From Candidatus Latescibacterota bacterium (lineage in GTDB: Bacteria; Krumholzibacteriota; Krumholzibacteriia; JACNKJ01), in assembly GCA_020633725.1 (NCBI GenBank), contig JACKDC010000004.1, positions 261,085 to 325,084 of the forward strand: a stretch of DNA of 64,000 nt, read 5' to 3'. The position numbers and the translations under genes are program-made. This document shows positions 11,348-51,544 of this stretch, one piece after another; within the stretch, counting starts at the first letter, position 1, and every line of letters begins with the position of its first letter. The notes beneath the pieces were generated by a model, which saw only the letters and a program-made list of their open reading frames with translations, ran no database searches and was not told where the DNA came from.

Positions 11348-11513
11348 GCGTAGGTACTACCAAGCAGTCGTCTTTGACCGTCTCCACGTCGGTAGGCAAC
11401 TCAGATGGCCCCAGCGATTGAATGATGGTCGAGCTTGCCAGCTCACTTTTGCGGTCTCGGCATGTGACGGAAGAAGGTCCAGGAGTAGCGGTAGACCCGG
11501 AGGCACCAGTGAG

Positions 11514-12335
11514 GTGACCACCCACGAACTCCATTTCGTGGCTCAACTTATTCTCTGCCTCTGCTGGACTGCAAGCACGGGCGCCGTCGCCCCATTGAGG
11601 GCCGCGGAGCAGAGCCGGCCCGTTCAAGCAGACACTTTGGCATTGAATACGTCTGGGTCAGGATTCGAGGCGACGGGCCTGAGGAACTACCGTGTCTTCC
11701 GGTGCGGCACAGCAGTCGATAGCGTGAAGAGCATCTTTCCTGGCTTGCTCAACCCTCAGAATGCCGACGCAGAAGGAAGCTACAGGCCGCTGAACGCCAT
11801 GATGGACATCAGGGTACCTGAGTTGGACTACATGCTGGATGGGTTCGATCCGGATTCGATTCTTCCTGGAACGAAAGCCTATCAAAGCATCCGCGGAGTG
11901 ATCATGGCGAGTCCCGAGATGCAGAACATCCTCGACGGAAACAGCCTCTTCTACCAGGTGTCGCTTGACCCGAACGCGATTTCATTCCAGGCATTCGAGG
12001 TGAGCTTCCCTTGGACGAGAAGTACTGTTAGTGCCAAGGGTGAAGCGTCCAATTGCGAGGAAAGTGTGCGGTTCACAAAGGCTGCATATGAAGCGGGTTG
12101 CGAGTTCGCGAAGACGATGAACCGTCGGGCGTGGTCCCCGGGGACGACTCTGGACTACAAACTCGCCAACGATGTGGATTTCTATTCGGTGTCGGCGCTC
12201 ACCAGGACCAGCAAGGACACTGCCGCCGGGACCGTATCCCTCTTGGTGTTACTCTACAGCGTAGAGGACGAGGCACTCGTTGCTGAGTCCATGCCAGCGG
12301 TTAGCTACCGGCGCCGTGCTTTCAGCCGCCCCTGA
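11514..12335 (+). CDS. hypothetical secreted protein encoded in a lower-GC island
   Basis: Long stop-free frame through a visibly AT-richer stretch (~11.4-12.3 kb); proposed GTG start 11514 with GGAGG 11499-11503; signal-peptide-like FVAQLILCLCWTASTGAVAPLRA; no family recognised. Confidence 0.4.
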   Translation: MTTHELHFVAQLILCLCWTASTGAVAPLRAAEQSRPVQADTLALNTSGSGFEATGLRNYRVFRCGTAVDSVKSIFPGLLNPQNADAEGSYRPLNAMMDIRVPELDYMLDGFDPDSILPGTKAYQSIRGVIMASPEMQNILDGNSLFYQVSLDPNAISFQAFEVSFPWTRSTVSAKGEASNCEESVRFTKAAYEAGCEFAKTMNRRAWSPGTTLDYKLANDVDFYSVSALTRTSKDTAAGTVSLLVLLYSVEDEALVAESMPAVSYRRRAFSRP

Positions 12336-27498: not shown

Positions 27499-27889
27499 GA
27501 CGGCGCAGTCCCCTGTCTGAGCTTAAGTGTTTGCCATTTCGCGGATTGGATGTGAGGCACGGCGAGGAACTCAACGCCGGACCGGCGGCGAAGTTCCGGA
27601 AGATATATCACGGCGGGTGGGTGCGGACAAGTGATTCACCGTCAAGGGATTGGACGTCGCGGCGTGGGGGTCGGCGGTCGCATATGAGTTATTGAGCCTG
27701 TAACATGCGGAAGACCTTTTGCGGCGGCCTGTTTGCCGGCGCTAAGCCGGCCCGACGCTTGGACTTGTCCGGGGCCATTGGTGATGAAGCCGGGATGAAT
27801 TTTCCTCCCAAAATCCCCTTGTGCTGACCGCGGGGGGCGGGGCTATTGTGGCGATCGTGACAGCACCCCAGCGCAGAGAGGTTTCGTGC

Positions 27890-28213
27890 ATGGCCAGCAT
27901 CCAGGACGTGAGCAGTCAGCACTTCGATGCGGTGATCCAGGATTCGCAAGTCCCTGTCCTGGTTGACTTTTGGGCGGATTGGTGCGCTCCCTGCAAGGCG
28001 ATGGAGCCCATGCTCGAAGAGATGAGCACGCTCCTGGGCGGCCGGGTTCGCTTCGTGAAGGTGAACGTGGACGAGGCGCGTCAGATCGCCATCCGCTACC
28101 GCATTCAGAGCGTCCCCACGCTGCTGGTCTTCAACGAGGGGCGGCCCGTGGACTCGATCACGGGAGTTCCGCCTCGCATGAACCTGCAGGATCGCATCGA
28201 AAAACACTTGTGA
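27890..28213 (+). CDS. trxA: thioredoxin
   Basis: ATG 27890 with AGAGAGG RBS; active site WCAPC (variant of WCGPCK), VDFWADWCAPCK, 107 aa. Confidence 0.85.
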   Translation: MASIQDVSSQHFDAVIQDSQVPVLVDFWADWCAPCKAMEPMLEEMSTLLGGRVRFVKVNVDEARQIAIRYRIQSVPTLLVFNEGRPVDSITGVPPRMNLQDRIEKHL

Positions 28214-28253
28214 CCTCCTTGTCTCTCGGGATTGCATAAGGAAAGCGGAAGAA

Positions 28254-28284
28254 CGGGCGGCCTCAGCCGGGCCGCCCGTTTGCT
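28254..28284 (+). terminator. intrinsic terminator after trxA
   Basis: cgggcggcc-tcagccg-ggccgcccg hairpin followed by TTTGCTTG. Confidence 0.55.
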
Positions 28285-28357
28285 TGCGCGGCACAGAGGC
28301 GGGTGATAGGGTCCCGGCGATCCGCGCCCGGGCCGGGCGCCGACCCCAGGGACCGCC

Positions 28358-30241
28358 ATGCTCCGGATCTACACGCGCCTCCTCGGCTACCTGCGCCCCT
28401 ACTGGCGGCGGGTGGTGCTCGCCTTCGGCGCCATCGTCCTCTACGCCGTGCTCAGCGGGGCCTCCCTGACCCTGCTGGTGCCCTTCCTCGACAACCTCTT
28501 CCAGTCCGGCGGCGCGCCGCCGTCCACCGAGCAGATGGAGGCGCAGCCGGGCGGCGGCGACCTGGACGAGGTCCTGGCCGGCCGGCTGCCCTTCCTGGCC
28601 CGCGCCAAGGCCGGGATCGAGCGGAGGGTGGACGCGACCCGCGCCTGGCTGGACCGGGGCGACCCCTTCACGCGGCTGCGGCGGATCGTCGTGCTGATCG
28701 TGCTGGTCTTCCTGGCCAAGAACCTCTTCGGCTACCTCGATCCCTACCTGGTCAACTGGCTCGAGCAGCGCTGTCTCTTCGACCTGCGCCAGGACCTCTG
28801 CCGCGTCCTCCAGCAGCAGCCGCTGGGGTGGATCACCCGCCAGAAGACGGGCGAGCTGATCAGCCGCGTGGTGAACGACGTGAACATGCTCCGCGGCGCC
28901 ATCATCGGCGCCACGGCGACGCTGCTGCGCGAGGGGCTGCTGCTGGTGATCTTCCTGGGCTTCCTGCTGGTGCTCAACTGGCGGCTGGCGCTGGCTGCGC
29001 TGTTGGTGGTGCCGATCAACGCCTGGCTCATGCGCCGCCTGGGGCAGCTGCTGCAGCGCGACAGCACGCGCATCCAGGTGCGCATGGGCGACATGGCCGG
29101 TCACCTGCAGGAGACGCTGAGCGGCGCGCGCGTGGTGAAGGCCTTCGGTCGCGAACAGGACGAGATCGAGCGCTTCCGCCACTACAACTGGGACTACTTC
29201 CGCGGCTTCGTGCGCCTGCGCGGCCTGGGCGCGCTCAACGCCCCGGCCAGCGAGATGCTCTCCACGCTCTCGGTGGTCTTCATCGTCGGCTACGGCGGGC
29301 ACCAGGTGCTGCAGGGGAACATGAGCGCCAGCGCGCTGATCCTCTTCCTGGTGGCGGCCGTGTCGCTGGTGGGGCCCCTGCGCAAGATCTCCGAGTTGAA
29401 TCAGGTGCTCCAGGAGGGCCTGTCCGCCGGCCGGCGCGTCTTCGGTCTGCTCGACGAGGAGGGCGAGGCCGCGCTACTCACGGGCGGGGTCGCGCCGGGG
29501 CCGCTTGCCGAGGCAATCCGCTTCGAGCACGTGGGTTTCGCCTACGAGCCCGGCCGGCCGGTGCTGGCGGACGTCACCCTGGAGATTCCCAAGGGACAGG
29601 TGGTGGCCCTGGTGGGCCCGAGCGGCGGCGGCAAGAGCACCCTGGCGGACCTGCTGGCGCGCTTCCACGAGCCCGGCGAAGGCGCGATCCGCATGGACGG
29701 CCGCGACCTGCGCGAGTTCAGCCTGCGCGACTGGCGCGCGAAGCTGGGGATCGTCACGCAGGACGTGCTGCTCTTCAACGACTCGATCCGCAACAACATC
29801 GCCTACGGCCGACCGGACGCCACCGACGCGCAGGTGGAGGCGGCGGCGCGCGCGGCGCGGGCGCACGGCTTCATCGCGGCCACGGCCCAGGGCTACGACA
29901 CGGTGATCGGCGAACGCGGGCTGCAGCTCTCCGGCGGCGAGCGCCAGCGCCTGGCCATCGCGCGCGCCATCCTGCGCGATCCGGAGATCCTCATCTTCGA
30001 CGAGGCCACCAGCGCCCTGGACACCGAGAGCGAGCGACTCGTCCAGGAGGCCATCGAGCGGCTCATGAGCGGGCGCACCACGCTGGTGATCGCCCACCGG
30101 CTGTCCACGGTGCAGGGCGCGCATCGGATCGTCGCGCTGGCCGAGGGGCGCATCGTCGAGCAGGGCCGGCACGAGGAGCTGCTCGCGGCCGGCGGGCTCT
30201 ACAAGCAGCTCCACGAGCTCCAGTTCGCCGGCGGCGCCTAG
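28358..30241 (+). CDS. ABC exporter, fused permease/ATPase (MsbA-like)
   Basis: 6 TM N-terminal domain; Walker A GPSGGGKST, signature LSGGERQRLAIARA, Walker B ILIFDEATSALD. Confidence 0.9.
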   Translation: MLRIYTRLLGYLRPYWRRVVLAFGAIVLYAVLSGASLTLLVPFLDNLFQSGGAPPSTEQMEAQPGGGDLDEVLAGRLPFLARAKAGIERRVDATRAWLDRGDPFTRLRRIVVLIVLVFLAKNLFGYLDPYLVNWLEQRCLFDLRQDLCRVLQQQPLGWITRQKTGELISRVVNDVNMLRGAIIGATATLLREGLLLVIFLGFLLVLNWRLALAALLVVPINAWLMRRLGQLLQRDSTRIQVRMGDMAGHLQETLSGARVVKAFGREQDEIERFRHYNWDYFRGFVRLRGLGALNAPASEMLSTLSVVFIVGYGGHQVLQGNMSASALILFLVAAVSLVGPLRKISELNQVLQEGLSAGRRVFGLLDEEGEAALLTGGVAPGPLAEAIRFEHVGFAYEPGRPVLADVTLEIPKGQVVALVGPSGGGKSTLADLLARFHEPGEGAIRMDGRDLREFSLRDWRAKLGIVTQDVLLFNDSIRNNIAYGRPDATDAQVEAAARAARAHGFIAATAQGYDTVIGERGLQLSGGERQRLAIARAILRDPEILIFDEATSALDTESERLVQEAIERLMSGRTTLVIAHRLSTVQGAHRIVALAEGRIVEQGRHEELLAAGGLYKQLHELQFAGGA

Positions 30242-40419: not shown

Positions 40420-42377
40420 CCCGCACCGCGCGCCTTTGGTTGTGGGCTGGTCTCGTTGGACTCTCCCTCGGCCTGCGGCTGTACCTGCTGAACTGGGGTC
40501 TGCCCTTCGTCTTCGAGGAAGCCGTTCCTCTCAAGAAGGCCTGGTACATGTGGCGGTGGGGGCAGAGCACGCTCCACCTCGACCCCGAGTTCTTCAACTA
40601 CCCCAGCCTCACGCTCTACCTGCACCTCGCGCTCCAGGGCGCGGTCTTCGGCGTCCAGCGCCTCGCCGGCATGGTGGACTCGGCGACGGACTTCGCCGCC
40701 CACTACGTCGTGGATCCCAGTGCCGTCATGCTGGCGGGCCGCGCGCTGCAGGCGCTCTTCGGCGCGGCGACGGTCGCCCTCGCCTGGCCGCTGGGCCGCC
40801 GCCTCGGCGGGGCGCTCACTGCCGCGGGCGGCGCGGCGCTGCTGGCGCTGAGCACCACGCACATCGCGCGCTCGCAGATGATCGAGGTGGACGTTCCGCT
40901 CACCTGCTTCACGCTGCTCACCCTGCTCGCCCTGCTGCGGGCCGCCGAGCGGCCGAGCCTGCGCGCCTGGCTCGCGGCCGGCGCGGCGATGGGCCTGGCT
41001 GCCTCCACGAAGTACACGGGCGCGCTGCTGGCGCTGCCGCTGGGGGCGGCGGCGATCGTCGCGCGGCGCGAACACGGCGCGGCCCTGCGCGCGTGGTGGC
41101 CGGTGGCCGCGCTCGCTGCCGCGGCGCTGGTGTTCGCGGCAACTAGCCCCTACGTGCTCATCGACTTCGGCACCTTCCGCGAGCACTTCGGTTACGAGCA
41201 GCAGCATCTGAGCCTGGGGCAGTTCGGGCTGGCGGGGACGTCGAGCCTGGCCTACTACGGCCGCGTGCTGGCCGGCAGCTTCCTCGGCTGGCCGGCCGCG
41301 CTGCTCGCGCTCGCCGGCTTGACGCACGGCATTGCGCGGCGGCGCCCCGCGGCGCTGATCCTCGCCGCCTTCTTGCTGCCTTACCTGCTCGTAGTGAACA
41401 CCTGGACGCTCCACGCCGAACGGTACCTGCTGCCGGCGCTGCCCTTGCTGCTGCTCTTCGCGGCGGCGGGGGCGAAGGCGTTGCTGGATCTCCCCCGGCT
41501 CCGCGCCTTCGCCGCGCCCGCACGGGCGGGCCTGGCCGCGGCGCTACTCCTCGCAGCCGCGGCGCCCTCGCTCCTCGCCTACCCCGGCTACCTGCGGAGC
41601 ATCGGCAGCGACACGCGGGCCACGTCCACGCGCTGGATCGAGGCCAACGTGCCGCGCGGTTCGCTGGTGGTCAGCGAGCTCTACGGGCCCGAGCTGTCGG
41701 GACCGCAGCAGACGCTCTCGCTGCCCAGGGCCATCGGCGCGCGCGCCGAGGCGCTCGAAACGCGGCCCGACTTCGGCGCGCTCTTGATCCCCATGTACCA
41801 GGTCTACCCCGAGCGCACGGCCCCGCTCTACGACCTCGACCTCTACGCCATGGCCGACCTGCTCGTCACCTCGGACGCAGTGCGCGGCCGCTACGCGCGC
41901 GACCCGGCGCAGTTCGCCGCGCAGTGCGCGTTCTACGCGCGACTCGATCGCGACTGGGAGCGCGTGGCGGACTTCGCGCCCACGGGCGGCGGGCCGGAGA
42001 TCGTCGTCTACCGCAATCCGCGCTGGCAGACGCCCTTCGCCGAACGCGACGCGATTCCCGAACCTCCGGCGCTGCAACTGGGGCCGGCGGGACCCACGGG
42101 CTCCGAGGCGACCTTCTACTACGAGTGGGGGACGGTCTGCGAGGTCTACGGGCAGCTCGTCCCCGCCGTGGACTGCTACGGCCTCGGCCTGCGCTACCCC
42201 GTGCCGCGGGACTCGCTCTACCGCGCGCTGGTGCTGCGACGGGCCGCCTGCCTCATCGACCTGGGCCGCGGCCAGGACGCGCTGCTCTGGCTGGAGGGGC
42301 TGGCCCGCGCGGAGCAAGAGCCTGCGCGCGCCGACTACCTGCGCTGGCTGCGGGGGCAGGTGGAGTCGAACCTCTAG
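40416..42377 (+). CDS. glycosyltransferase family 39 (ArnT/PMT-like) polytopic membrane protein with C-terminal soluble domain
   Basis: GTG start overlapping upstream stop (GTGA); N-terminal GT-C fold TM topology resembling ArnT/dolichyl-phosphate-mannose transferases. Confidence 0.6.
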   Translation: MTRTARLWLWAGLVGLSLGLRLYLLNWGLPFVFEEAVPLKKAWYMWRWGQSTLHLDPEFFNYPSLTLYLHLALQGAVFGVQRLAGMVDSATDFAAHYVVDPSAVMLAGRALQALFGAATVALAWPLGRRLGGALTAAGGAALLALSTTHIARSQMIEVDVPLTCFTLLTLLALLRAAERPSLRAWLAAGAAMGLAASTKYTGALLALPLGAAAIVARREHGAALRAWWPVAALAAAALVFAATSPYVLIDFGTFREHFGYEQQHLSLGQFGLAGTSSLAYYGRVLAGSFLGWPAALLALAGLTHGIARRRPAALILAAFLLPYLLVVNTWTLHAERYLLPALPLLLLFAAAGAKALLDLPRLRAFAAPARAGLAAALLLAAAAPSLLAYPGYLRSIGSDTRATSTRWIEANVPRGSLVVSELYGPELSGPQQTLSLPRAIGARAEALETRPDFGALLIPMYQVYPERTAPLYDLDLYAMADLLVTSDAVRGRYARDPAQFAAQCAFYARLDRDWERVADFAPTGGGPEIVVYRNPRWQTPFAERDAIPEPPALQLGPAGPTGSEATFYYEWGTVCEVYGQLVPAVDCYGLGLRYPVPRDSLYRALVLRRAACLIDLGRGQDALLWLEGLARAEQEPARADYLRWLRGQVESNL

Positions 42378-42904
42378 GTCGCGGGATACTTCGCCACGAG
42401 TCGCCGCAGCGTGTTCAGCCCGCGGAAGGTGGCGCGCTGGCCGAGCGTCTTCTCGAAGACCGCGTTGGAGAACGTCGAGTCGCTCTGCTCTGCATCGCAG
42501 AGCCAGTGCAGCTCATGGCCGTGCAGGTGGAAGCGGTCGATGGCGGTCTCCAGGCCCGCGAGCGCGCGGCGCTGGGGCGCGGTGAGCGGCGCCTTGAGAA
42601 AGCCCACGTTGTGGGCCGTGGCCGCGGGCAGCGCGTCCGCATGCGCGACGATCGCCGCCAGCTCCACGTCGGTGCGCAGGAAGGTGGCCACGGCGTAGCC
42701 GAGGGCGGCCTCGAGGTGGCGTTCGATCTTCGTCTCCAGCGCGGGCAGCGAGCGCGCGCGGGTGGTGAAGATCACGTTGCCGCTGGCGATGAAGGTCTCA
42801 GGGGCGGCGATGCCCAGGTCGACGAAGTGGCCGCGCAGGGCGTCCATGGTGACGGTGTGACCGCCGACGTTGATGGCGCGGAGAAAGGCGATGCAGCGGG
42901 GCAT
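42374..42904 (-). CDS. DUF1697 family protein
   Basis: N-terminal AFLRAINVGG signature. Confidence 0.7.
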   Translation of the reverse strand: MPRCIAFLRAINVGGHTVTMDALRGHFVDLGIAAPETFIASGNVIFTTRARSLPALETKIERHLEAALGYAVATFLRTDVELAAIVAHADALPAATAHNVGFLKAPLTAPQRRALAGLETAIDRFHLHGHELHWLCDAEQSDSTFSNAVFEKTLGQRATFRGLNTLRRLVAKYPAT

Positions 42905-42950: not shown

Positions 42951-43688
42951 TCAGTACAGCGACTTTACTGCAGAGAAGCTCGTGGGCTCTACGACGACGA
43001 TCCCGTCGCTCTCGATCTCCATCCCGAGGAGAATCTCGCCCATCCCGTAGTCGCTGAAGTAGATGCCTAGCGTATAGAGGTCGCGGTCCCCCGGAGGCTC
43101 GGGGGCAGGGGCGGTGTCTCGGCCAAACCATGTGTTTAGTATGGCAGACAGGTGCACATGGTCCGAGGATTGGTCTCGCCAAAGCATGGGATGGTGGCCG
43201 TCGGCACCTCCACCGGCGAGGGGCCGGATGAACACCCCGAAGGTCTCCTCCTCGTTCGAACCACCCAGCGCGAACCAGTGAAATACATCAAGCTCCTCCC
43301 AGCAGTAGTTGCAAGTGGTCGTATACTCGTTGAGTCGCTGAAAGGAAAAGCCCTCTGATCCGTCGCTGTAGCGAATCCGGTAGATCAGATGTACCTCATA
43401 GGGGATGCCAGACTCGGCGTAGTCGCCGCCATGGTAGAACCAGATCCGCTGAACGATGAAACCCTCGTCAAAGGTGTCGTCCGGCCAGGTCATGAAGTTC
43501 CCCACCACTGTAGTGCTGGTTGGCCCCCAGATCGGCGAGTAAGGGACGCCATCGTGGATGTCAATCGACAGAAAACCGCGTTCTGTCGGCGCGGCCGTGG
43601 CGCTGGAAGGAACTCCTAGGCCAAGGGCAGCAAGCATGGCCGAAAGCAAGATGGCGTAGCTAAAACTGAACGATCTGCAGATTCGCAT
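42951..43688 (-). CDS. hypothetical secreted protein (lower-GC island)
   Basis: ATG 43688 with GGAGG RBS; signal peptide MRICRSFSFSYAILLSAMLAALGLGVPSSATA; no family recognised. Confidence 0.45.
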   Translation of the reverse strand: MRICRSFSFSYAILLSAMLAALGLGVPSSATAAPTERGFLSIDIHDGVPYSPIWGPTSTTVVGNFMTWPDDTFDEGFIVQRIWFYHGGDYAESGIPYEVHLIYRIRYSDGSEGFSFQRLNEYTTTCNYCWEELDVFHWFALGGSNEEETFGVFIRPLAGGGADGHHPMLWRDQSSDHVHLSAILNTWFGRDTAPAPEPPGDRDLYTLGIYFSDYGMGEILLGMEIESDGIVVVEPTSFSAVKSLY

Positions 43689-44163
43689 TAGGGGCCTCCA
43701 CATCGACCGTGAGGACAACCGATTCCTCCTGTGGCGCAAGCCGAAGAAGCAGGCTGTCCCCAGGACACGGCAAGGAATCCAGCATCGCCAAAGGGCTCAA
43801 GTCGAATAGAATCTCTCGGTGTTCGCCGTCCTCCTTGGCGGGGAACAGGTCGAGGAGCTGGAGCATGGACACTTCGTCATCTCCGCTACGGCAAAGGACC
43901 TCAAGGCCGAGAAGGACATCGTCGTCACTCAGAGAAACCGGAGTGACGAGTAACCATTCTAGCACGATCTGCCGACCAGTCGCCACGATGCCTGCGCCGC
44001 CTACGACAGTCACGAACCCCCCGCTGCTGGCGTCCGCAGCAAAGGCAAGGGCCGTCTCCTCGATCTCGAGTGCTCTGCAGTGTGAGGAGTGAATGGAAGC
44101 TGTGGCAACGGCGACCACAAGAACGACCTTGCCCAACCTCAAGCTTCTGGGATTACTTGACAT
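43660..44163 (-). CDS. hypothetical secreted protein (lower-GC island)
   Basis: ATG 44163; signal-like MSSNPRSLRLGKVVLVVAVATASIHS; overlaps neighbours by 11 and 29 nt. Confidence 0.4.
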   Translation of the reverse strand: MSSNPRSLRLGKVVLVVAVATASIHSSHCRALEIEETALAFAADASSGGFVTVVGGAGIVATGRQIVLEWLLVTPVSLSDDDVLLGLEVLCRSGDDEVSMLQLLDLFPAKEDGEHREILFDLSPLAMLDSLPCPGDSLLLRLAPQEESVVLTVDVEAPNANLQIVQF

Positions 44164-47100
44164 AGATCACCTTCCCCTTGAGTGTCTTGGCTTCTCCGAC
44201 GATGCGGTACAGGTAGACTCCCGAGCTGACAGGCTGGCCCTGTTCGGAGTCGCCCCTCCAAATGAAGAGCTGATCACCGTTCTCGCCAATCGTTGCCGAG
44301 AGCCTCCGGACTTCCCGGCCAAGGATGTCAAAGACCTGGAGTCTTGCCGGAGCGCCGGGTGCCCTATAGCGGAAGTGAATCTGCCCGTTGAACGGGTTCG
44401 GCCAAGCGCCCTCAGGTGGTGGAGCCGCGGACTCTATACCGATGTAGAAACCGGGGTCAGTAGGACTCGTCCCGCAGGCGAAGAGAGAGTTCTGAGCGGT
44501 CCAGGGTCCGAAATCGACGCGCGTTGAATCGGGCTTGAAGAACGCGTCAGGGCACATGCAGTCAATCCCATAGTCCTCCCCAAAGCCCTCGCAGGTCCCC
44601 CAGGCATTGCCCTCCGCCGGAATGACGTTGGTCGTGGCGTTGTAGATGCGCACCATCTCAACTTCGGCAGCGTCCTCGTAGCAGGAAGCTGGTGTTCCCT
44701 GCACGTACGTCCAGCAGTCCGCACTGGTGGTTAGCGGCGCGATGAAGTTTCCGCCCGCGCTCTGACCCGGCGCGCCAAGGTCAACGGTACCGCTCCAGGC
44801 GTAGTTGATAACGCCGTAGTCACACAAGTGGATGTCGACGTGGTCCAGGCTGAGCTGGGCGGAGTCCCAGTTCTTAGCCCCGACCCGTGGACCCGCAATG
44901 TCGCAGTACTGGGCGTAGACTCTAGAACTCCCCCTGCATTGGATCCCGGTTTCAGGAGCAACTGCAGCTGAGTGCGGTTCGATCGTTAGGTTTGGCCCAA
45001 GGTACGCCATCGGCTGGTGCGGCATGAACTTCTCACCGATCTGAATGCCCGTCCTAAGGAAGTACATCTCCGTGTTGGATACACTGAGGGTACCCCTCAT
45101 GCAGTAGACCAGGGGAGGAGGCAGGGAGAGGAGAGACTGGAAGTTCTCCCGCTGAGAGATCGTACAATTCGCGATCTCAGCCGACCTGCCGACTCCCGAG
45201 TCGATCCAGATTCGATTGACACTCGGGATCTCGCAGTACTCCAGCGCGGGCTCCCGCGGGCCATTCTGAAGATCAAGGACGATTGCGTTGTCGTTGGTGT
45301 CGGCCAGATAGAGCGTGGAGTAGCTTATTCTCACGAGGGCGCTGTCGGCGACGATCTGCTCCGCGTCATTCAGCCGGCAGTAGTCGAGGTCCAATAGCCC
45401 GAGATTCTCTGCGAAAAGCCCTGCGTAGTCTGTGTTCGTGTCCCCCGGAAGAATCGACGGGAGAAACTCCACTGGCGCTTCGGCGGTGCCTCTCACCAGG
45501 AGGGAGCCTCCATCGGCCACGATTTTGGACGTAGCGTTTCGGAAGTAGACCCTGGCTCCCTCTTCAACCGTGAGGTCGCAACCCGGCAGGATCCGTACCT
45601 CACCGTCGACCCAGGCCGTTTCACCAGCTTCGACGACGACATGGCAGTCGGTACCACCAATCGTGTCGGGGAGGCTCACGACTGTGTCCGGAACGGTCTG
45701 AAAGCGGTACTCGTAGGGCAGCATGATGGGATTGAGGTTCCCCGCGACCCCTTCCTTGGGAACAAGCGTGAGCACTAGCGCAACAGCATCGCTATTCCCC
45801 TTGCCGAAGTCCGTCACGTTGAAATCAACGACCTGCCCTGGCGCAGGCTCGATCCAGTGGGTCTCGATGCTGCGCTTCCGTTCGCCGTACACATCCAGGC
45901 CATTGTCGCGTGGATCTAGGTCGTCCGGTGCGAAGGGCAGGTCATAGCCAATCAGATCCACGGCGAGTCGGACTTTGCCTTCGTACGCCGCCGTCACCGA
46001 TTGCAGTGCATAGGCGCTGTCTGGATCGGTGGGGCAGATCATGCAAGGATACTCATCGAGGAAGCGGAAGCTGACACTGAGGTCCACCCCAGAAGTGTCC
46101 GGGGGCTGGAACACAAGGTAGTTGCTAGCGAAGGTCTGGACCCCTACCAAGCGTCGCTTGTTCCACTCCGGAACGAACCAGCTGTAGTCATCCGCGTCGC
46201 AGTCCGTGGGCCAGTAATCTGAGCTGAACTGCCACCCGGACACCACCTGACGATCGGACGAGCACGTGTGGTAGGGAGGAAACGCCTGGATGTTGTCGTA
46301 GCAAACCCCGTTCGAGTCCTGAAGGAAGTTGTACAGCGCCTGAGGCTGGTAGCCATCGGGATCGTCGCCCTCTCCGAGCCACTGGTAGATTTCCTCATCC
46401 GATGTGGGACTCTGAAGGTTGAGAAACTTCGCGAGGCCATAGGCGCGGAAGACCTCGTTGACACGCTGGTGCGGGCTCGCACTGGAAGACGAGAAAAAGG
46501 CATCGAGGTCTGGGACATCCAGCGCAATCCCCAGTCCCGGGAAATTGTGCAAGTAGGTCCGATGGCCCTCATCTTCCGTGTAGGTGCGGATCCAGCGGTA
46601 GACCAGGCTGTCCTCTAGCGCTTCGCCGGGCAACGTGAATACGTTGTCCAGGTAGATCGCGAACATCGCCCAGTCATTGTAGACGTTGCCAAACCTCGAA
46701 AGGCACCCCGACCCGAGGAGGCTGTCCTGGGTCACGGGTACCGCGTTCTGGCAGGCCGAGGCGTAGTGAGAGCCGCTTCCGTTATTGCTGACCGGGGTAT
46801 CATAGGGAGACGTGTGCGTATCGGAGCCATCCAGGCCGTACTTGGATGCGGAAAGCACAGAGCACATTTCGTCGAAGCTCTCGAATATCGATGTGCTCCG
46901 ATCCACACGTTGCCAGCTGTGGTGGCAAACATGCTGCCACTCGTGTGCGAAGGCGTCGCGCGCGACCTCCCAAGGTGTCAAGAACTGCCCGTCTTGGCCC
47001 TCGATGTGGGCTGTCACGTACTCATGTGTCGCATTGATAACCCGGCAGGTGTCGAAGATGTAGATTCCGAAGTGGGTGTAGGTCGTGTCCTGCCCCGCGG

Positions 47101-47548
47101 GGGCACCAGTCTTGGTCTGGATTCCGAAGAGCGTATCGACGGAAGCGAACGCGTCCTCGCCGAAGTAGTCGAGGATCGACTTCGCCATTCCACTCACATC
47201 ACCCGCCAGCGAGTCGACGACGATGTTGGCAAACTCGCGCAAGTCGTCTTCGTCCCATCGGGAGCCAGGGGCCCCAGTGGCCCCAGGGGCGCCCGGCTCC
47301 CAGCAGAGGAAGACCGTGAAGTGCTTGTTGAAGATGGGGTTCCCGGCAAAGACCGTCGAGTCGACGGGCGCGAGAGAATCTCCATCGGCGCAAATCAGCT
47401 GGAGGCCATCATCGCAATCTCGGAACTGGGTCGCGTGGACCAGCGAAGAGAGGGAGAGCAGCGCTACCAAGCTCAAAGCGCGCAGGAGCCAAACAAAAAG
47501 CGCCAGCAGTTGCCGGCGCGAATTGGCGGGATTCGGTCCATTCGTCAT
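44153..47548 (-). CDS. large secreted protein with single HExxH zinc-metallopeptidase-like motif and T9SS-type CTD (lower-GC island)
   Basis: ATG 47548 with AGGAGGG RBS; signal peptide; FAHEWQHVCHH motif with downstream FESFDE; C-terminus WPNPFNGQIHFRYRAP...SGVYLYRI...KVIYVK; 1131 aa. Confidence 0.65.
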   Translation of the reverse strand: MTNGPNPANSRRQLLALFVWLLRALSLVALLSLSSLVHATQFRDCDDGLQLICADGDSLAPVDSTVFAGNPIFNKHFTVFLCWEPGAPGATGAPGSRWDEDDLREFANIVVDSLAGDVSGMAKSILDYFGEDAFASVDTLFGIQTKTGAPAGQDTTYTHFGIYIFDTCRVINATHEYVTAHIEGQDGQFLTPWEVARDAFAHEWQHVCHHSWQRVDRSTSIFESFDEMCSVLSASKYGLDGSDTHTSPYDTPVSNNGSGSHYASACQNAVPVTQDSLLGSGCLSRFGNVYNDWAMFAIYLDNVFTLPGEALEDSLVYRWIRTYTEDEGHRTYLHNFPGLGIALDVPDLDAFFSSSSASPHQRVNEVFRAYGLAKFLNLQSPTSDEEIYQWLGEGDDPDGYQPQALYNFLQDSNGVCYDNIQAFPPYHTCSSDRQVVSGWQFSSDYWPTDCDADDYSWFVPEWNKRRLVGVQTFASNYLVFQPPDTSGVDLSVSFRFLDEYPCMICPTDPDSAYALQSVTAAYEGKVRLAVDLIGYDLPFAPDDLDPRDNGLDVYGERKRSIETHWIEPAPGQVVDFNVTDFGKGNSDAVALVLTLVPKEGVAGNLNPIMLPYEYRFQTVPDTVVSLPDTIGGTDCHVVVEAGETAWVDGEVRILPGCDLTVEEGARVYFRNATSKIVADGGSLLVRGTAEAPVEFLPSILPGDTNTDYAGLFAENLGLLDLDYCRLNDAEQIVADSALVRISYSTLYLADTNDNAIVLDLQNGPREPALEYCEIPSVNRIWIDSGVGRSAEIANCTISQRENFQSLLSLPPPLVYCMRGTLSVSNTEMYFLRTGIQIGEKFMPHQPMAYLGPNLTIEPHSAAVAPETGIQCRGSSRVYAQYCDIAGPRVGAKNWDSAQLSLDHVDIHLCDYGVINYAWSGTVDLGAPGQSAGGNFIAPLTTSADCWTYVQGTPASCYEDAAEVEMVRIYNATTNVIPAEGNAWGTCEGFGEDYGIDCMCPDAFFKPDSTRVDFGPWTAQNSLFACGTSPTDPGFYIGIESAAPPPEGAWPNPFNGQIHFRYRAPGAPARLQVFDILGREVRRLSATIGENGDQLFIWRGDSEQGQPVSSGVYLYRIVGEAKTLKGKVIYVK

Positions 47549-47701
47549 ATCGGCCCTCCTGGCTAGTGGTAATCATAGCTCAGGAATCAGCACCTGTACA
47601 GGGGGGGGGCGGCGATTTGGCAATGAAAACATGCCGAGGCAGGCGGCCTGGTGGGCACGGGCGGTGTCGGCCTCGGGGGCGGACACCGGAATCGCCGGAC
47701 G

Positions 47702-49183
47702 CTATTCGCCGTCGATGATCCGCCGCACGGTGGCCACCAGCTCGCCGCGCGGGATCGTCACCTGCGCGGGGCGTTCTTCCTGCCACTGCTTGCGGTCGCT
47801 CATGCCCTGCGCGAGCTTGCGGCCCACGGCGAGGTCCTTCACCGACACCTCGTTCGACGCGAACTCGTTCTCGCCGCAGATCACCACGGCGGGCAGGCCG
47901 CGCCGGTCCGCGTAGCGCAGCTGGGCGCCCACGCGGCCTTCGCCCATGTAGAGCTCGGCGGCGACGCCCGCGGCGCGCAGCTCGGCGGCGAGGCCCATGT
48001 ACTCGGCCATGAAGTTCGGGTCCATCACGACGACGAGCACGGAGTCGGGGCCGCCGCCCGCCTCGGGACGCGCGAGTTCGAGCGCGGCGAGCAGGCGGTC
48101 CACGCCCATGGACGCGCCCGTGGCCGGCACGACCTTGCCGAGGAAGCGGTCGACGAGGTCGTCGTAGCGCCCGCCGCCGGCCACGCTGCCGAAGCGGGTG
48201 ACCTCGCCCTTCTCGTCCTTCACCTCGAAGGTGAGTTCGGCCTCGTAAACAGGGCCCGTGTAGTAGGCCAGGCCGCGCACGACCGTGGGGTCGAAGGTGA
48301 TGCGCTCGTCGCCCGCGCCCGCGGCCGTGAGCAGGCGGTCGATCTCGGCGAGTTCGGCCACGCCCTCCTCGCCCACCTTGGAGCCCGCGGTGAGCGCGCC
48401 CAGCGCGGTCACGAGCGCGCCGCGCTCCTGACCGACGAGCTGCAGGTAGCCGAGGATCGTGTCGATCTGGCCCGTGGCCAGCGCGGCGCCCTTGGTGAAG
48501 TCGCCGGACTCGTCCATGCGGCCCTTGCCGAGGAGCTGGGCGACGCCGTCAAGGCCCACGCGGTCGAGCTTGTCGATGGCGCGCAGCACGGTGAGCCAGG
48601 GGCCGGCCACGTCCTCGCGGGAGTCCGCGACGTTCAGCCCCGCCTTCTCCAGCACGCCGTTCAGCACCTTGCGGTTGTTCACGCGGATGCGGTAGTCGCC
48701 GGGCTGGAAGCCGAGGGCCTCCATCACGTCGCCCAGCACGCTGCAGACCTCGGCGTCGGCAAGCATGGAGGCCGTGCCCACCGTGTCGAAGTCGCACTGG
48801 ATGAACTCGCAGAAGCGGCCCGGGCCGGGCTTCTCGTCGCGAAAGACGGAACCCACCTGGTAGCGGCGGAAGGGCAGCGGCAGGTCGGGGTACTGCGCCA
48901 TGACCCGCGACAGCGGCGCGGTGAGGTCGTAGCGCAGGGCCAGCCACTCGTCGCGCTCGTCGCGGAAGGCGAAGACGCCGCCTTCGGGACGATCCGTGTC
49001 GGGGAGATACTTGCCCAGCGTCTCGAGGTACTCGACGATGGGCGTCTCGAGCGCGGTGAACCCGTAGCGGCGATAGACCGCGACGATGCGCTCGATCATC
49101 CGCTGGCGCTGCACCAGGGCGTCGCCGAAGACGTCGCGAAACCCACGGGGCAGGCGCGGTGTGGGACGTTCGGGCGCAGCCAT
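47702..49183 (-). CDS. hisS: histidine--tRNA ligase
   Basis: Class II aaRS motifs incl. LPRGFRD (motif 1), FRDEKPGPGRFCEF, GGGRYD (motif 3). Confidence 0.9.
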   Translation of the reverse strand: MAAPERPTPRLPRGFRDVFGDALVQRQRMIERIVAVYRRYGFTALETPIVEYLETLGKYLPDTDRPEGGVFAFRDERDEWLALRYDLTAPLSRVMAQYPDLPLPFRRYQVGSVFRDEKPGPGRFCEFIQCDFDTVGTASMLADAEVCSVLGDVMEALGFQPGDYRIRVNNRKVLNGVLEKAGLNVADSREDVAGPWLTVLRAIDKLDRVGLDGVAQLLGKGRMDESGDFTKGAALATGQIDTILGYLQLVGQERGALVTALGALTAGSKVGEEGVAELAEIDRLLTAAGAGDERITFDPTVVRGLAYYTGPVYEAELTFEVKDEKGEVTRFGSVAGGGRYDDLVDRFLGKVVPATGASMGVDRLLAALELARPEAGGGPDSVLVVVMDPNFMAEYMGLAAELRAAGVAAELYMGEGRVGAQLRYADRRGLPAVVICGENEFASNEVSVKDLAVGRKLAQGMSDRKQWQEERPAQVTIPRGELVATVRRIIDGE

Positions 49184-49230
49184 GACGGGAATCCTAGTTC
49201 ACTGTGGTCAGCGTGGCGCTCGCCACGAGG

Positions 49231-49304
49231 TACCGCCGACGGGACTTGAACCCATGACCTCCTGGGCCACAACCAGGCACTCTAGCCAACTGAGCTACGG
49301 CGGC
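49231..49304 (-). tRNA. tRNA-His (anticodon GTG)
   Basis: Reverse complement GCCGCCGTAGCTCAGTTGGCTAGAGTGCCTGGTTGTGGCCCAGGAGGTCATGGGTTCAAGTCCCGTCGGCGGTA folds as cloverleaf; anticodon loop TTGTGGC. Confidence 0.85.
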
Positions 49305-49438: not shown

Positions 49439-50134
49439 ATGGCCACGATCCTCCTCGACATCGGCAACGTGCTCTGGAGCGACGACGACGGCGACGCCTT
49501 CACGCTGACCAACATCGGACGCGTGCTCGCCGCGCGCGGGCAGGCCGTGAGCGAGGGGGTGATCGCGGCGGCCCAGGCCCAGGCCGTGGCCGACTGGGCG
49601 CCCAGCGCCTGGCGCGCGGTGATCCACGGCCTGGCGCGCGACCCCGTCGAGGCGGCGGCCGTGACGCGCGAGGTCCGCGCCCGCTGGGACGCCCTCAGCG
49701 ACGACGACTACGCCGCCTTCACCACACCCTTTCCCTCCACCGCGCCGCTGCTGGAGTCACTCGCCGAGGGAGGCCACACACTCGTCCTCGCCAGCAACAA
49801 CTCGCCGCGGGCGCTCGCGCGCCTGGAGACGCTGGGTCTCTTGCGCCACTTCGCGGTGAAGGAGGTCTCCGAGACGCTGGACCTGGCCAAGCCCGATCCG
49901 CGCTTCTTCGAGGCGCTTCTCGCGGCGGCGGGCAACCCCGCGCGCGCGATCATGGTGGGGGACCGCATCGACAACGACGTCGCGCCGGCGCGTGCGCTCG
50001 GCCTCGCCACCGTGCGCCTGCGCCATGGCTCGCACATCGCTCAGGAGCCGCGGGGGCCGGAGTCCACGCCGGATCTCACCGTCGACGATCCCGCGGAGCT
50101 CTCGGTCGCGCTCGCGCGCTTTGTGGGCGTGTGA
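49439..50134 (+). CDS. HAD-superfamily hydrolase
   Basis: N-terminal DIGNVLW (motif I DxG/D-type), LASNNS (motif II), MVGDRIDNDV (motif IV). Confidence 0.7.
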   Translation: MATILLDIGNVLWSDDDGDAFTLTNIGRVLAARGQAVSEGVIAAAQAQAVADWAPSAWRAVIHGLARDPVEAAAVTREVRARWDALSDDDYAAFTTPFPSTAPLLESLAEGGHTLVLASNNSPRALARLETLGLLRHFAVKEVSETLDLAKPDPRFFEALLAAAGNPARAIMVGDRIDNDVAPARALGLATVRLRHGSHIAQEPRGPESTPDLTVDDPAELSVALARFVGV

Positions 50135-50287
50135 GGCCAGGACGTAGCCAGACGACTCGATCGACCCGATCCCGGATCCAGATAGCGGCTATAGGTTTTC
50201 TCCTTTGACGTCCCCGCGCCGTGCTAGGCTTCTGCCGGCCACAACAGCGACCAGGACCCGCTACCCCGCCACCAGGAGCCTCTCATC

Positions 50288-51520
50288 ATGAAGCTCTGCT
50301 CCCCCTCACTGCCAGTGCTCCTCGTCCTTCTCATGGCCGCCGCCGCTTTCGCCCAAGACTGGACGCCGGTACCACTGGGATCCGTGGGGGACATTCTCGC
50401 CATTCAGCAGACAACGTCCCCTGAGCATTGGCTGACCGGGCGCGCGGGACTCGTTGCTCGCTCCAACGCTGACCACACCGTCTGGACTCTCGTCGACGTC
50501 GGCACGAGCGCGGATCTGTTCTCGGTCGTCGAACCTGCCGTCAGTCAAGTCTGGGTCGGCGCCGGCGGTGGGGTCGTGCGGTATCTTGACAATGGAGTAT
50601 GGGCGCAGCGGGACATTCCCGATGCACAGGACTTCGTCCTTCACACGCGCGTCGTTGGTGAGGCTCTGGCAGTCGGTAGCCAGGGGGCGATCTACCATGG
50701 CACCGACTACGGCCAAACCTGGACGCCCGAGAGCAGCGGCACGCAGGCGGCTCTGCATGGTGCGACCGGTGTCACGACGGGCCCCGCCTGGGCGGTGGGA
50801 GACGACGGGCTGATCCTCAAGCTCGAGAGCGGTGCGACACAGTGGATCCCGCGGGTCAGCGGCACGACCGCCGACCTGCTTGCCATCGCCGAGAACCTGA
50901 ACCTCCTCTTCGTCGTTGGACAGGGGGGGACGATCCTGCGCAGCGCGGATGGTGGAGCGAGCTGGTCGCCGCGTATGAGCGCTACGGAGGCCACTCTACG
51001 CGCGATCAGCGTCAGCAAGAACGACTTCAACGTGATGGTCGCGGTCGGCGACGAGGGCGTGATCTTGAAGTCCGTTGATCGAGGTGAGACCTGGTGCCGT
51101 CTCTCGTCGATGACTACGGCGCGATTCAACGCAGTGGAGGCCGTCAGCACGATGGAATACCTCGTGGCCGGCGAGGGCGGTCTCCTGCTGCGAACAACCA
51201 CAGGCGGCGGCGACTGCCAGGATCCCCTCGCCGCGCTACCCCTTGCGATTCCGGGTGGCCTCAGGCTCTCGGCGCCGTCGCCCCAGCCGGCAACCGCACG
51301 CGTCGCGTTCGAACTGGACCTCGATCGGGATGGAAGCTACGCGGCGAGTCTAATCGACATGCAGGGGCGCGTCCTGCGCGAGGTCTTTCGTGGCCGATCT
51401 CTGGCCGCTGGGCGGCATCCGCTGCAGGTGGACACCTCGGAGCTCCCCGCGGGAGTCTATCTGCTCCAGGTGCGTACCGGCGACGCCAGCGCGGCGCGGA
51501 GGTTCGTCGTGCTCCATTGA
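50288..51520 (+). CDS. BNR/Asp-box repeat beta-propeller protein (Ycf48/sortilin-like) with T9SS-type CTD
   Basis: Signal peptide; Asp-box SxDxGxxW repeats (HGTDYGQTW, LRSADGGASW, LKSVDRGETW); C-terminal sorting-domain-like tail. Confidence 0.65.
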   Translation: MKLCSPSLPVLLVLLMAAAAFAQDWTPVPLGSVGDILAIQQTTSPEHWLTGRAGLVARSNADHTVWTLVDVGTSADLFSVVEPAVSQVWVGAGGGVVRYLDNGVWAQRDIPDAQDFVLHTRVVGEALAVGSQGAIYHGTDYGQTWTPESSGTQAALHGATGVTTGPAWAVGDDGLILKLESGATQWIPRVSGTTADLLAIAENLNLLFVVGQGGTILRSADGGASWSPRMSATEATLRAISVSKNDFNVMVAVGDEGVILKSVDRGETWCRLSSMTTARFNAVEAVSTMEYLVAGEGGLLLRTTTGGGDCQDPLAALPLAIPGGLRLSAPSPQPATARVAFELDLDRDGSYAASLIDMQGRVLREVFRGRSLAAGRHPLQVDTSELPAGVYLLQVRTGDASAARRFVVLH

Positions 51521-51544
51521 GCGAGCCGCTCGCAAGTTCACGCG

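What the first reader, a model, noticed from the sequence alone, without database searches (positions are those of the whole stretch)
42951..47580. Lower-GC island encoding a large HExxH metallopeptidase-like CTD protein plus two small secreted proteins
From about 42.95 to 47.58 kb the sequence is visibly AT-richer than its surroundings (by eye mid-50s % GC versus ~70%). It carries a 3-gene minus-strand unit: a 1131-aa secreted protein with a single FAHEWQHVCHH (HExxH) motif and the T9SS-type CTD, followed by two overlapping small signal-peptide proteins (167 and 245 aa) with no recognisable family. The island abuts hisS/tRNA-His. The composition shift plus secreted cargo suggests horizontal acquisition; the small proteins could be partner, inhibitor or immunity proteins for the putative protease.
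Basis: partly seen in the sequence, partly recalled or inferred. Interest (0 to 1): 0.6.

Follow-up and report, generated by a model that had tools for sequence, protein, structure and literature searches.

The report
Low-GC operon encoding a secreted zinc protease
A real low-GC patch in a Krumholzibacteria-like genome holds a conserved three-gene operon: a large secreted zinc protease of an unclassified family (fold closest to staphylococcal M30 enzymes) and two unknown secreted partner proteins, and related copies at every locus examined are just as GC-poor.

Summary
Window 42951-47548 has GC 0.60 against 0.70 for the rest. It carries three overlapping minus-strand genes: A (1131 aa), B (167 aa) and C (245 aa). 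They lie between DUF1697 and hisS/tRNA-His.

- **Proteins B and C.** They are fixed partners of A. The A-B-C order and the 11-nt A/B overlap recur in at least seven unrelated genomic contexts, including a second paralogous cassette in the same genome. Their functions remain unknown. B evolves fastest. C ends in a tag (SFSxVKSLY) shared with unrelated secreted proteins.
- **Composition.** Every copy examined is GC-poor: GC3 is 0.63-0.83 against 0.85-0.97 in neighbouring genes.

"Island" is therefore partly right. This is an accessory, probably mobile cassette, not a strain-specific insertion at the tRNA. No integrase or flanking repeats were found.

The parts
42951..47548 (-). The A-B-C operon, which is the low-GC island (GC 0.597 against 0.703)
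44153..47548 (-). Gene A, 1131 aa, a multidomain secreted protein
   Evidence: 97% identical to P0001 (Ca. Krumholzibacteriia MAG).
47432..47548 (-). A aa 1-39: Sec-type signal peptide (RR, hydrophobic core, VHA|TQ), read by eye
   Evidence: Sequence. Inference only; no signal-peptide predictor was available.
46223..47290 (-). A aa 87-442: M30-like gluzincin catalytic domain
46931..46945 (-). HEWQH (H202, E203, H206): zinc-binding and catalytic motif, invariant
46868..46870 (-). E227 (FDEM / NE motif, 20 residues after H206, on the next predicted helix): putative third zinc ligand, invariant
46652..46654 (-). Y299: invariant Tyr in a predicted helix, candidate transition-state stabiliser (inferred by analogy with M1)
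45674..46222 (-). A aa 443-625: beta-rich (sandwich-like) domain with a conserved CxxC (C502, C505)
   Evidence: Low-confidence model; conservation
44744..45673 (-). A aa 626-935: right-handed beta-helix region, assigned by transitive homology
   Evidence: Residues about 760-934 align to P0057 residues 732-898, which overlap its Pfam Beta_helix hit at 725-885. 18 of 46 relatives hit PF13229.
44801..45016 (-). About 215-bp mosaic patch (aa 845-916), roughly 70% identical to the otherwise identical relative
44414..44743 (-). A aa 936-1045: Cys-rich module with six invariant Cys
44156..44413 (-). A aa 1046-1131: T9SS type-A / FlgD_ig-like C-terminal sorting domain (PNPFNG ... KVIYVK)
   Evidence: TIGR04183 at 28.2 bits against cutoff 23. 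Pfam hits fall below their gathering scores.
43660..44163 (-). Gene B, 167 aa. Its ATG overlaps A's stop by 11 nt (TATGTCAAGTAA). Signal peptide read by eye; two conserved Cys (C91, C133); fastest-evolving member.
42951..43688 (-). Gene C, 245 aa. Its start overlaps the end of B by 29 nt. Signal peptide read by eye. Conserved motifs DIHDG, WFYHGG, TTCNxCWE, LWRD, SDYGxGE.
42954..42980 (-). C-terminal tag SFSAVKSLY-COOH of protein C, shared with unrelated secreted proteins
47572..47600 (-). Sigma-70-like promoter candidate (TGTACA-17-TATGAT) upstream of A, with a GGAGG ribosome-binding site before the ATG
   Evidence: Consensus match only.
47601..47609 (.). G9/C9 homopolymer immediately 5' of the -35-like hexamer. 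It is the only G/C run of 8 or more in the 64-kb window.

Best explanation
The low-GC stretch is a self-contained accessory operon, A-B-C, of a Krumholzibacteria-like (FCB-group) bacterium.

**Protein A.** It is exported by Sec and then probably handed to a type IX-like secretion system through its C-terminal sorting domain. It would end up on the cell surface or outside the cell. Its N-terminal domain is a zinc endopeptidase of the gluzincin type: HExxH on one helix, a Glu ligand on the next, and a conserved Tyr. The nearest solved fold is the staphylococcal M30 enzyme lugdulysin. The beta-sandwich, beta-helix and Cys-rich modules behind it most likely hold or select the substrate.

**Protein B.** It is translationally coupled to A and evolves fastest. 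The most plausible role is a cognate periplasmic binder, either an inhibitor or a chaperone, that keeps A inactive before export. This is inferred, not shown.

**Protein C.** It is a conserved secreted protein with several invariant His, Cys, Asp and Glu residues and its own short C-terminal tag. It is probably a co-secreted accessory factor. This too is inferred.

**Composition.** The operon is GC-poor and rich in host-rare codons at every locus examined. The best reading is that it belongs to the flexible, horizontally exchanged gene pool of these high-GC bacteria, and was not inserted once at this site.
For: **Shown**
- GC and GC3 deficit and rare-codon enrichment.
- The same A-B-C order in at least seven contexts with different flanks: window/L001, L002-4, L005-7/L094-95, L008-9, L010, the P0005 contig (gene table only), L102-103, and the distant L013. 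The 11-nt A/B overlap is conserved in all except L013.
- In each of the ten cassette loci with DNA, the cassette is 10-18 GC points below its flanks.
- A lone C gene (L011, GC3 0.68) and a distant A relative (L104, GC3 0.67) are also GC-poor against neighbours at 0.89-0.98.
- Two paralogous cassettes sit in one genome; their A proteins are 45% identical.
- An IS3-type transposase lies next to the cassette in L008/9.
- H202, E203, H206, E227, Y299 and W319 are invariant in 38 catalytic domains down to 17% identity.
- AlphaFold model pLDDT 82.6. HEWQH lies in helix 192-212 and E227 in the next helix, 225-237.
- The C-terminal domain passes TIGR04183.
- B shows 25-39% identity, against 36-60% for the catalytic domain and 37-64% for C.

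**Inferred**
- Secretion route, substrate-binding role of the beta-helix, B as inhibitor or chaperone, C as accessory factor.
Against: - No biochemical data exist. Zinc binding and proteolysis are inferred from motif and fold.
- No sequence HMM (Pfam M30 or any peptidase family) recognises the domain, even at E up to 10. Foldseek against the PDB gives nothing significant.
- C also occurs without A (L011/12 and the P0030 contig), so it may not act on A at all.
- No donor lineage in compositional equilibrium with the cassette was found. Horizontal exchange is therefore not demonstrated, and selection for rare codons could also maintain the low GC.
- T9SS machinery genes were not looked for.
Confidence: 0.6

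Rival explanations
1. This is a recent, strain-specific genomic island integrated at the hisS/tRNA-His locus from a lower-GC donor.
For: - GC, GC3 and codon anomaly with sharp edges at gene boundaries.
- tRNA-His lies 1.7 kb away.
- A strain-variable 1.44-kb gene insertion on the other side of the tRNA shows the neighbourhood is plastic.
Against: - hisS separates the island from the tRNA.
- No direct or inverted repeats flank it, and it carries no integrase or transposase.
- The only close relative has it at the same place, 100% identical outside one patch.
- A second, 45%-identical cassette in the same genome and all other cassettes share the low GC. Low GC therefore does not date an event at this site.
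- No plasmid or phage copies were found.
Confidence: 0.12
2. The low GC is maintained by selection rather than transfer. Host-rare A/T-ending codons, possibly together with a phase-variable homopolymer at the promoter, keep expression of a costly or dangerous surface protease low or conditional.
For: - The deficit persists across family members from 27% to 97% identical, and in two old paralogues within one genome. Amelioration should have erased it if it were neutral.
- Host-rare codons are five-fold enriched.
- The only G/C run of 8 or more in 64 kb sits at A's promoter. G11 and poly-G tracts lie upstream of A in L104 and L002.
Against: - Other secreted proteins with a C-terminal sorting domain in the same window (the LVIVD proteins at 32-37 kb) have normal GC.
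- GC1 also drops (0.60 against 0.74), which suggests a general compositional shift rather than codon choice alone.
- No expression data exist.
- The poly-G in L002 abuts an assembly gap and may be a sequencing artefact.
Confidence: 0.18
3. A-B is a polymorphic toxin-immunity-like pair. A would be a T9SS-delivered antibacterial protease and B the periplasmic immunity protein.
For: - B is secreted to the periplasm (signal peptide read by eye), translationally coupled to A, and the fastest-evolving member.
- There are several paralogous cassettes per genome.
- A carries a recombination patch.
- The composition is accessory-like.
Against: - The catalytic domain is the best-conserved part of A and lies at the N-terminus, unlike polymorphic toxins, which have variable C-terminal toxin domains.
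- No match to PADLOC or to known immunity families.
- No orphan immunity arrays were seen in the loci read.
- C is unexplained by this model.
Confidence: 0.1
4. A is a non-catalytic surface adhesin or beta-helix protein with a degenerate zincin-like domain.
For: - Large beta-helix and Cys-rich modules.
- No peptidase HMM match.
Against: All four canonical gluzincin residues plus a Tyr are invariant across 38 sequences down to 17% identity. That pattern is expected for an active enzyme, not for a relic.
Confidence: 0.04

Closest known systems
MEROPS family M30 (hyicolysin; lugdulysin, PDB 7bb8), clan MA(E) gluzincins
   Same: - HExxH on the active-site helix and a Glu on the following helix.
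- Secreted enzyme.
- The wider family's motif is HE[WFLY]QH, which I recall (own knowledge, not tested) resembles the M30 motif.
   Different: - 13% identity.
- Not detected by Pfam at E up to 10, nor by an HMM search of PDB sequences.
- Host is Gram-negative, FCB group.
- The catalytic domain is fused to a beta-sandwich, a beta-helix, a Cys-rich module and a T9SS C-terminal domain.
- It is encoded with two obligatory partner genes.
T9SS cargo proteases of Bacteroidota (for example T9SS-dependent M36 metallopeptidases NF038113, and gingipains)
   Same: - Sec signal peptide, enzyme domain and type-A C-terminal sorting domain.
- Many other genes in the window carry the same kind of C-terminal domain.
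   Different: - Different catalytic family and different phylum.
- The C-terminal domain scores as well on FlgD_ig as on Por_Secre_tail, and falls below both Pfam thresholds.
- Presence of T9SS machinery was not tested.
Secreted metalloprotease plus periplasmic inhibitor operons (serralysin/AprA with AprI/Inh; staphopain with staphostatin) - own knowledge
   Same: A small protein is encoded immediately downstream of, and co-translated with, a secreted protease. B carries a signal peptide (read by eye).
   Different: B shows no sequence similarity to any inhibitor family in Pfam or the PDB. Binding and inhibition are untested. The third gene, C, has no counterpart.
Other gluzincins with an NE..S..AEY-type glutamate helix (M1 aminopeptidases, M9 collagenases, M61)
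   Same: - The family consensus HExxH-x(about 20)-NExxSxxAEY resembles the M1 'NEGFA' helix (the resemblance is from own knowledge).
   Different: There is no M1 N-terminal or C-terminal domain and no GxMEN exopeptidase motif in the alignments, so an endopeptidase is more likely.

Membership tests
Zincin / gluzincin (clan MA(E)) | HExxH motif on an alpha-helix | tested here: met
   HEWQH at aa 202-206 is invariant in 38 sequences. It lies in predicted helix 192-212.
Zincin / gluzincin (clan MA(E)) | Third zinc ligand is a Glu on the next helix, about 18-25 residues after the second His | tested here: met
   E227 is 20 residues after H206, invariant, and lies in predicted helix 225-237.
Zincin / gluzincin (clan MA(E)) | Thermolysin-like fold (upper beta-sheet plus active-site helix plus lower helical subdomain) | tested here: met
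   [not shown]
Zincin / gluzincin (clan MA(E)) | Zinc binding and peptide-bond hydrolysis | not testable with these tools
   Needs biochemistry.
MEROPS M30 / Pfam PF10460 Peptidase_M30 | Significant match to the family sequence model | tested here: not met
   No hit for A at E up to 0.1, for 46 relatives at E up to 0.01, or for 38 catalytic domains at E up to 10. A profile search of PDB sequences does not retrieve 7bb8.
MEROPS M30 / Pfam PF10460 Peptidase_M30 | Closest three-dimensional fold | tested here: met
   [not shown]
T9SS type A cargo | C-terminal sorting domain above the model threshold | tested here: met
   TIGR04183 scores 28.2 bits against cutoff 23. Pfam PF18962 (19.9) and PF13860 (24.8) are below their cutoff of 27.
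T9SS type A cargo | T9SS machinery (PorK/L/M/N, Sov/SprA, PorU/V) encoded in the genome | not tested
Integrative genomic island | Integrase or transposase, flanking direct repeats, insertion directly at a tRNA 3' end | tested here: not met
   The island holds only A, B and C. No significant flanking repeats. hisS lies between the island and tRNA-His.
Integrative genomic island | Atypical composition | tested here: met
Integrative genomic island | Presence/absence polymorphism among close relatives | tested here: inconclusive
   The only close relative has the island. The GTDB scan with hisS found nothing closer than 58% identity and no synteny.
Right-handed parallel beta-helix (PF13229) | Match to the Pfam model | tested here: inconclusive
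   A itself has no hit. A residues about 760-934 align to the Beta_helix-positive region of P0057.
Diversity-generating retroelement target (considered for the hypervariable patch) | Substitutions confined to template adenines, plus a template repeat and a reverse transcriptase nearby | tested here: not met
   All substitution types occur, including synonymous changes and indels. No second copy of the patch exists in the window or the loci.
Known protease-inhibitor or immunity families (for B and C) | Match to any Pfam, NCBIfam, PADLOC or PDB sequence model | tested here: not met

The most novel reading that the evidence does not exclude
A-B-C is a previously unrecognised kind of mobile surface-protease module specific to Krumholzibacteria-like bacteria. 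It would combine four things:
- a new gluzincin family (M30-like fold, no sequence membership) delivered by a T9SS-type C-terminal domain;
- a fast-evolving cognate periplasmic inhibitor or immunity protein;
- an accessory protein routed by a new C-terminal sorting tag (E-x-S-S-[FW]-S-x-[VI]-K-[AS]-L-Y-COOH), which also marks other secreted proteins;
- a persistently AT-rich, rare-codon composition, a promoter homopolymer and recombination patches, reflecting frequency-dependent selection on a phase-variable, exchangeable surface weapon or feeding device.
Probability: 0.15. Interest if true: 0.75.

Novelty: new variant of a known kind. Interest (0 to 1): 0.48.

Why it matters
- **A new protease family.** It adds a structurally supported but sequence-orphan family of secreted zinc proteases. 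Only 66 relatives were found among 1.84 billion cluster representatives. The host is an uncultured phylum known only from metagenomes, whose extracellular proteolysis probably feeds carbon and nitrogen turnover in sediments.
- **A testable partnership.** The fixed link with two unknown secreted proteins gives a concrete handle on how such bacteria control or assist a surface protease.
- **A caution about low GC.** The family-wide GC deficit shows that "low GC" cannot be read as one recent transfer at the site. It is also a good test case for whether transfer or selection keeps accessory genes AT-rich in very GC-rich genomes.
- **A possible new export signal.** The short C-terminal tag on protein C, shared with unrelated secreted proteins and absent from NCBIfam, may be an undescribed sorting signal.

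Tried and rejected
- **Sequence libraries on A.** Pfam, NCBIfam and PDB searches recognised only the C-terminal sorting domain.
- **First structure model.** The whole N-terminal half (aa 38-628) with a 7-sequence alignment gave pLDDT 49.5 and was unusable. It was replaced by the catalytic region with 38 sequences.
- **Foldseek against the PDB.** Nothing significant. The afdb50 library was unavailable.
- **Synteny test with hisS in GTDB species representatives.** The nearest HisRS is 58% identical, mostly from Alphaproteobacteria, and no cassette, DUF1697 or PMT_2 lies nearby. The test was uninformative.
- **Diversity-generating retroelement for the hypervariable patch.** Rejected on the substitution spectrum and the absence of a template copy. 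Gene conversion from the paralogous cassette was also rejected, because it has no DNA match.
- **Prophage, defence-island or plasmid origin.** No PHROG, PADLOC, plasmid or phage matches.
- **Internal homology.** B and C are not homologous to any part of A by hhalign.
- **Profile searches for B and C.** PDB and Pfam at E up to 10 returned only noise.
- **Literature.** Searches on Krumholzibacteria/T9SS and on lugdulysin/M30 found nothing bearing on this family.
- **Flanking repeats.** Only short chance matches.
Full report
**1. The observation**

The composition profile shows GC of 0.57-0.61 in every 500-nt window from 43000 to 47500, against 0.70-0.75 on both sides. Over the island (42951-47548) GC is 0.597, and over the rest of the window 0.703. 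1-kb windows outside the island have mean 0.703 and sd 0.034.

The shift is strongest at third codon positions. GC3 is 0.75, 0.67 and 0.72 for the three island genes, against 0.85-0.95 for hisS, DUF1697, PMT_2 and an FAD oxidoreductase. GC1 also drops, from 0.74 to 0.60. Codons rare in nine host genes make up 10.6% of the island codons and 2.2% of host codons.

I call them A, B and C.
- A: 44153-47548, 1131 aa.
- B: 43660-44163, 167 aa. Its ATG overlaps A's stop by 11 nt (TATGTCAAGTAA).
- C: 245 aa from the ATG at 43688, overlapping the end of B by 29 nt.

The flanks are DUF1697 (42374-42904, -), hisS (47702-49183, -) and tRNA-His (49229-49304, -). The island is the longest low-GC stretch in the window but not the only one. 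11.5-12.5 kb reaches 0.595, and a peptide ABC-transporter region at 5-9 kb reaches 0.63-0.65.

**2. Organism and close relative**

A is 97% identical to a protein of a Candidatus Krumholzibacteriia MAG, GCA_041390085.1. That contig aligns with the window at 98.6-98.9% identity and has the same gene order: hisS, A, B, C, DUF1697, PMT_2.

The two sequences are 100% identical from 34153 to about 44750. That span covers all of B and C and most of A. The exception is a patch of about 215 bp (44801-45016, A aa 845-916) with 63 mismatches in one 250-bp bin plus small indels. The substitutions are of all types, synonymous and non-synonymous. This looks like a recombination import from a diverged allele, not a diversity-generating retroelement. 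The donor is not the paralogous cassette described below.

**3. Protein A is a gluzincin with a fold closest to M30**

Sequence libraries recognise only the C-terminal sorting domain. TIGR04183 scores 28.2 bits against a cutoff of 23. Pfam FlgD_ig and Por_Secre_tail fall below their thresholds.

A profile of the N-terminal half found only 66 proteins at E up to 0.001 among 1.84 billion cluster representatives. Most of them carry HE[WFLY][QGA]H, a Beta_helix region and a T9SS/FlgD_ig tail. None matches a Pfam peptidase family.

In a 38-sequence alignment of the catalytic region (identity to A as low as 17%), the invariant residues are H202, E203, H206, E227, Y299 and W319. That is HExxH, a Glu 20 residues further on within an NE/DE motif, and a Tyr.

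With this alignment AlphaFold gave a confident model of aa 87-442 (pLDDT 82.6, pTM 0.84). HEWQH lies in a long helix (aa 192-212) and E227 in the next helix (aa 225-237), behind a beta-sheet.

The sequence test for M30 membership is not met. I describe the domain as an unclassified gluzincin family with an M30-like fold.

The rest of A, in order:
- aa 443-625: a beta-rich domain (low-confidence model).
- aa 626-935: a beta-helix region assigned by transitive homology. A residues about 760-934 align to the Pfam Beta_helix-positive part of P0057.
- aa 936-1045: a module with six invariant Cys.
- aa 1046-1131: the C-terminal sorting domain.

**4. B and C are fixed partners of unknown function**

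The A-B-C arrangement recurs with different flanking genes at the following loci.
- L002-4: after an OmpA gene.
- L005-7 and L094-95: after an ECF sigma / anti-sigma pair, with C duplicated.
- L008-9: after an IS3-type transposase.
- L010.
- The P0005 contig (gene table only; no DNA was available).
- L102-103.
- L013: a distant cassette whose A is 27% identical.

The 11-nt A/B overlap is conserved in all except L013 (where B starts 18 nt after A's stop), and C overlaps B by 26-47 nt.

L094 comes from the same genome as the close relative, and its A is 45% identical to the window's A. This species therefore carries two paralogous cassettes.

B has a signal peptide (read by eye) and two conserved Cys. 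It is the fastest-evolving member, at 25-39% identity against 36-60% for the catalytic domain. Only three homologues were retrievable.

C is well conserved, with 29 family members. Its nearly invariant motifs are DIHDG, WFYHGG, TTCNxCWE, LWRD and SDYGxGE. Neither B nor C matches Pfam, NCBIfam, PDB sequences, PHROGs or PADLOC. Neither resembles any part of A.

C also occurs without A, in L011/12 and on the P0030 contig.

B as a periplasmic inhibitor or chaperone of A is the most economical reading of the translational coupling, the periplasmic location and the fast evolution. It is inference only.

**5. The composition anomaly belongs to the family**

In every one of the ten cassette loci with DNA, the cassette is 10-18 GC points below its flanks: 0.53-0.61 against 0.67-0.735. 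GC3 of cassette genes is 0.63-0.83, against 0.85-0.97 for neighbouring genes. The lone C gene in L011 (GC3 0.68) and the distant relative P0057 in L104 (GC3 0.67, against 0.98 for the gene upstream) follow the same pattern.

Low GC therefore cannot date an insertion at this site. Two explanations remain:
- The cassette lives in the horizontally exchanged, AT-richer flexible gene pool of these bacteria. In favour: varied contexts, an adjacent IS element, multiple paralogues and a recombination patch.
- Selection keeps it rich in rare codons.

I favour the first, but no donor in compositional equilibrium was found. No integrase, flanking repeats, plasmid or phage copies were found either. The synteny test in other relatives was uninformative, because the species-representative collection has no close relative.

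**6. Things found on the way**

- **A shared C-terminal tag.** The extreme C-terminus of C (E-x-[ST]-S-F-S-x-[VI]-K-S-L-Y) recurs as ...E-x-S-S-W-S-x-V-K-A-L-Y-COOH at the end of unrelated signal-peptide proteins in the same kind of genome. Two are in the fetched loci, and eight ORF ends lie on six metagenome contigs. Those genes have normal GC3 of about 0.95. No NCBIfam model covers the tag. It may be an undescribed sorting or anchoring signal.
- **A promoter homopolymer.** The only G/C homopolymer of 8 or more in the window (G9, 47601-47609) lies directly upstream of the -35-like hexamer of A's candidate promoter. This hints at phase variation and was not tested.
- **A strain-variable gene.** The window has a 1.44-kb segment (50101-51542) that the relative lacks. 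It encodes a BNR/Asp-box protein with a T9SS C-terminal domain.

**7. Verdict**

The peptidase and "partner proteins" parts of the interpretation are supported. The reading as an acquired island next to tRNA-His is only partly supported.

This is a new variant of a known kind: a T9SS-type secreted gluzincin from an unclassified, rare family with an M30-like fold, encoded in a conserved, GC-poor three-gene cassette with two orphan partners.

Noticed in passing
window 44801-45016 (A aa 845-916): A mosaic patch of about 215 bp at roughly 70% identity to GCA_041390085.1, inside 10.6 kb that is otherwise 100% identical. All substitution types occur, plus indels. It looks like a recombination import from an unsampled allele, in the beta-helix region of A.
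   Followed up: yes
window 50101-51542: A 1.44-kb segment present in the window and replaced by 24 nt in the close relative. It encodes a 410-aa BNR/Asp-box (PSII_BNR-like) protein with a T9SS C-terminal domain, GC about 0.66. It also alters the last residues of the adjacent HAD hydrolase gene. Mismatch density rises to about 14% just beside it (49750-50100).
   Followed up: partly
window 42954-42980; L008 7986-8903; L011 16843-17490(-); L096-L101: A short C-terminal tag, E-x-S-S-[FW]-S-x-[VI]-K-[AS]-L-Y-COOH, ends protein C and also unrelated signal-peptide proteins (PPC-like, DUF1080-like, a lipoprotein, jelly-roll-like). Eight further ORF ends on six metagenome contigs carry it. No NCBIfam model matches. 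It may be a new sorting or anchoring signal.
   Followed up: partly
window 47601-47609: G9 (C9 on the coding strand) is the only G/C homopolymer of 8 or more in the 64 kb. It abuts the -35-like hexamer of A's candidate promoter. A G11 tract lies upstream of the distant homologue in L104, and a poly-G plus assembly gap lies upstream of A in L002. Possible phase-variation switch, or a sequencing artefact in L002.
   Followed up: partly
L094 6601-11801 (GCA_041390085.1 contig JAWKQP010000003; same context as L005-L007): The same genome carries a second, paralogous A-B-C cassette. Its A is 45% identical to the window's A, and C is tandemly duplicated. It lies directly downstream of an ECF sigma factor / RskA-type anti-sigma pair, which may regulate it. 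GC is 0.60 against 0.69 for the flanks.
   Followed up: partly
L008 1449-2354 / L009 1536-2441: An IS3-family transposase (rve) lies immediately upstream of the cassette in one lineage. This is the only mobility gene seen next to any copy.
   Followed up: no
L011 versus L012, upstream of 10001: The same lone C gene and downstream genes are preceded by different large secreted proteins in two metagenomes: a 1203-aa beta-helix protein in one, and C25-peptidase proteins in the other. This indicates rearrangement at that point.
   Followed up: no
window 11232-12335 and 27689-29302: Other low-GC patches (0.595-0.64) hold ORFs of 367 and 537 aa with no Pfam match. The 5-9 kb peptide ABC-transporter genes are also GC-poor (0.63-0.65). 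GC heterogeneity is common in this genome.
   Followed up: partly
window 47702-49183 (hisS): The 493-aa HisRS has no relative above 58% identity among GTDB species representatives. Most of the 80 best hits listed are Alphaproteobacteria (Rhodobacterales, Hyphomicrobiales).
   Followed up: no
L002 14822-19957: Downstream of that cassette lie a 340-aa orphan, a 1017-aa FlgD_ig C-terminal-domain protein and a 301-aa orphan, all at normal GC (GC3 0.955 for the 1017-aa gene). They may form another secreted-protein module.
   Followed up: no
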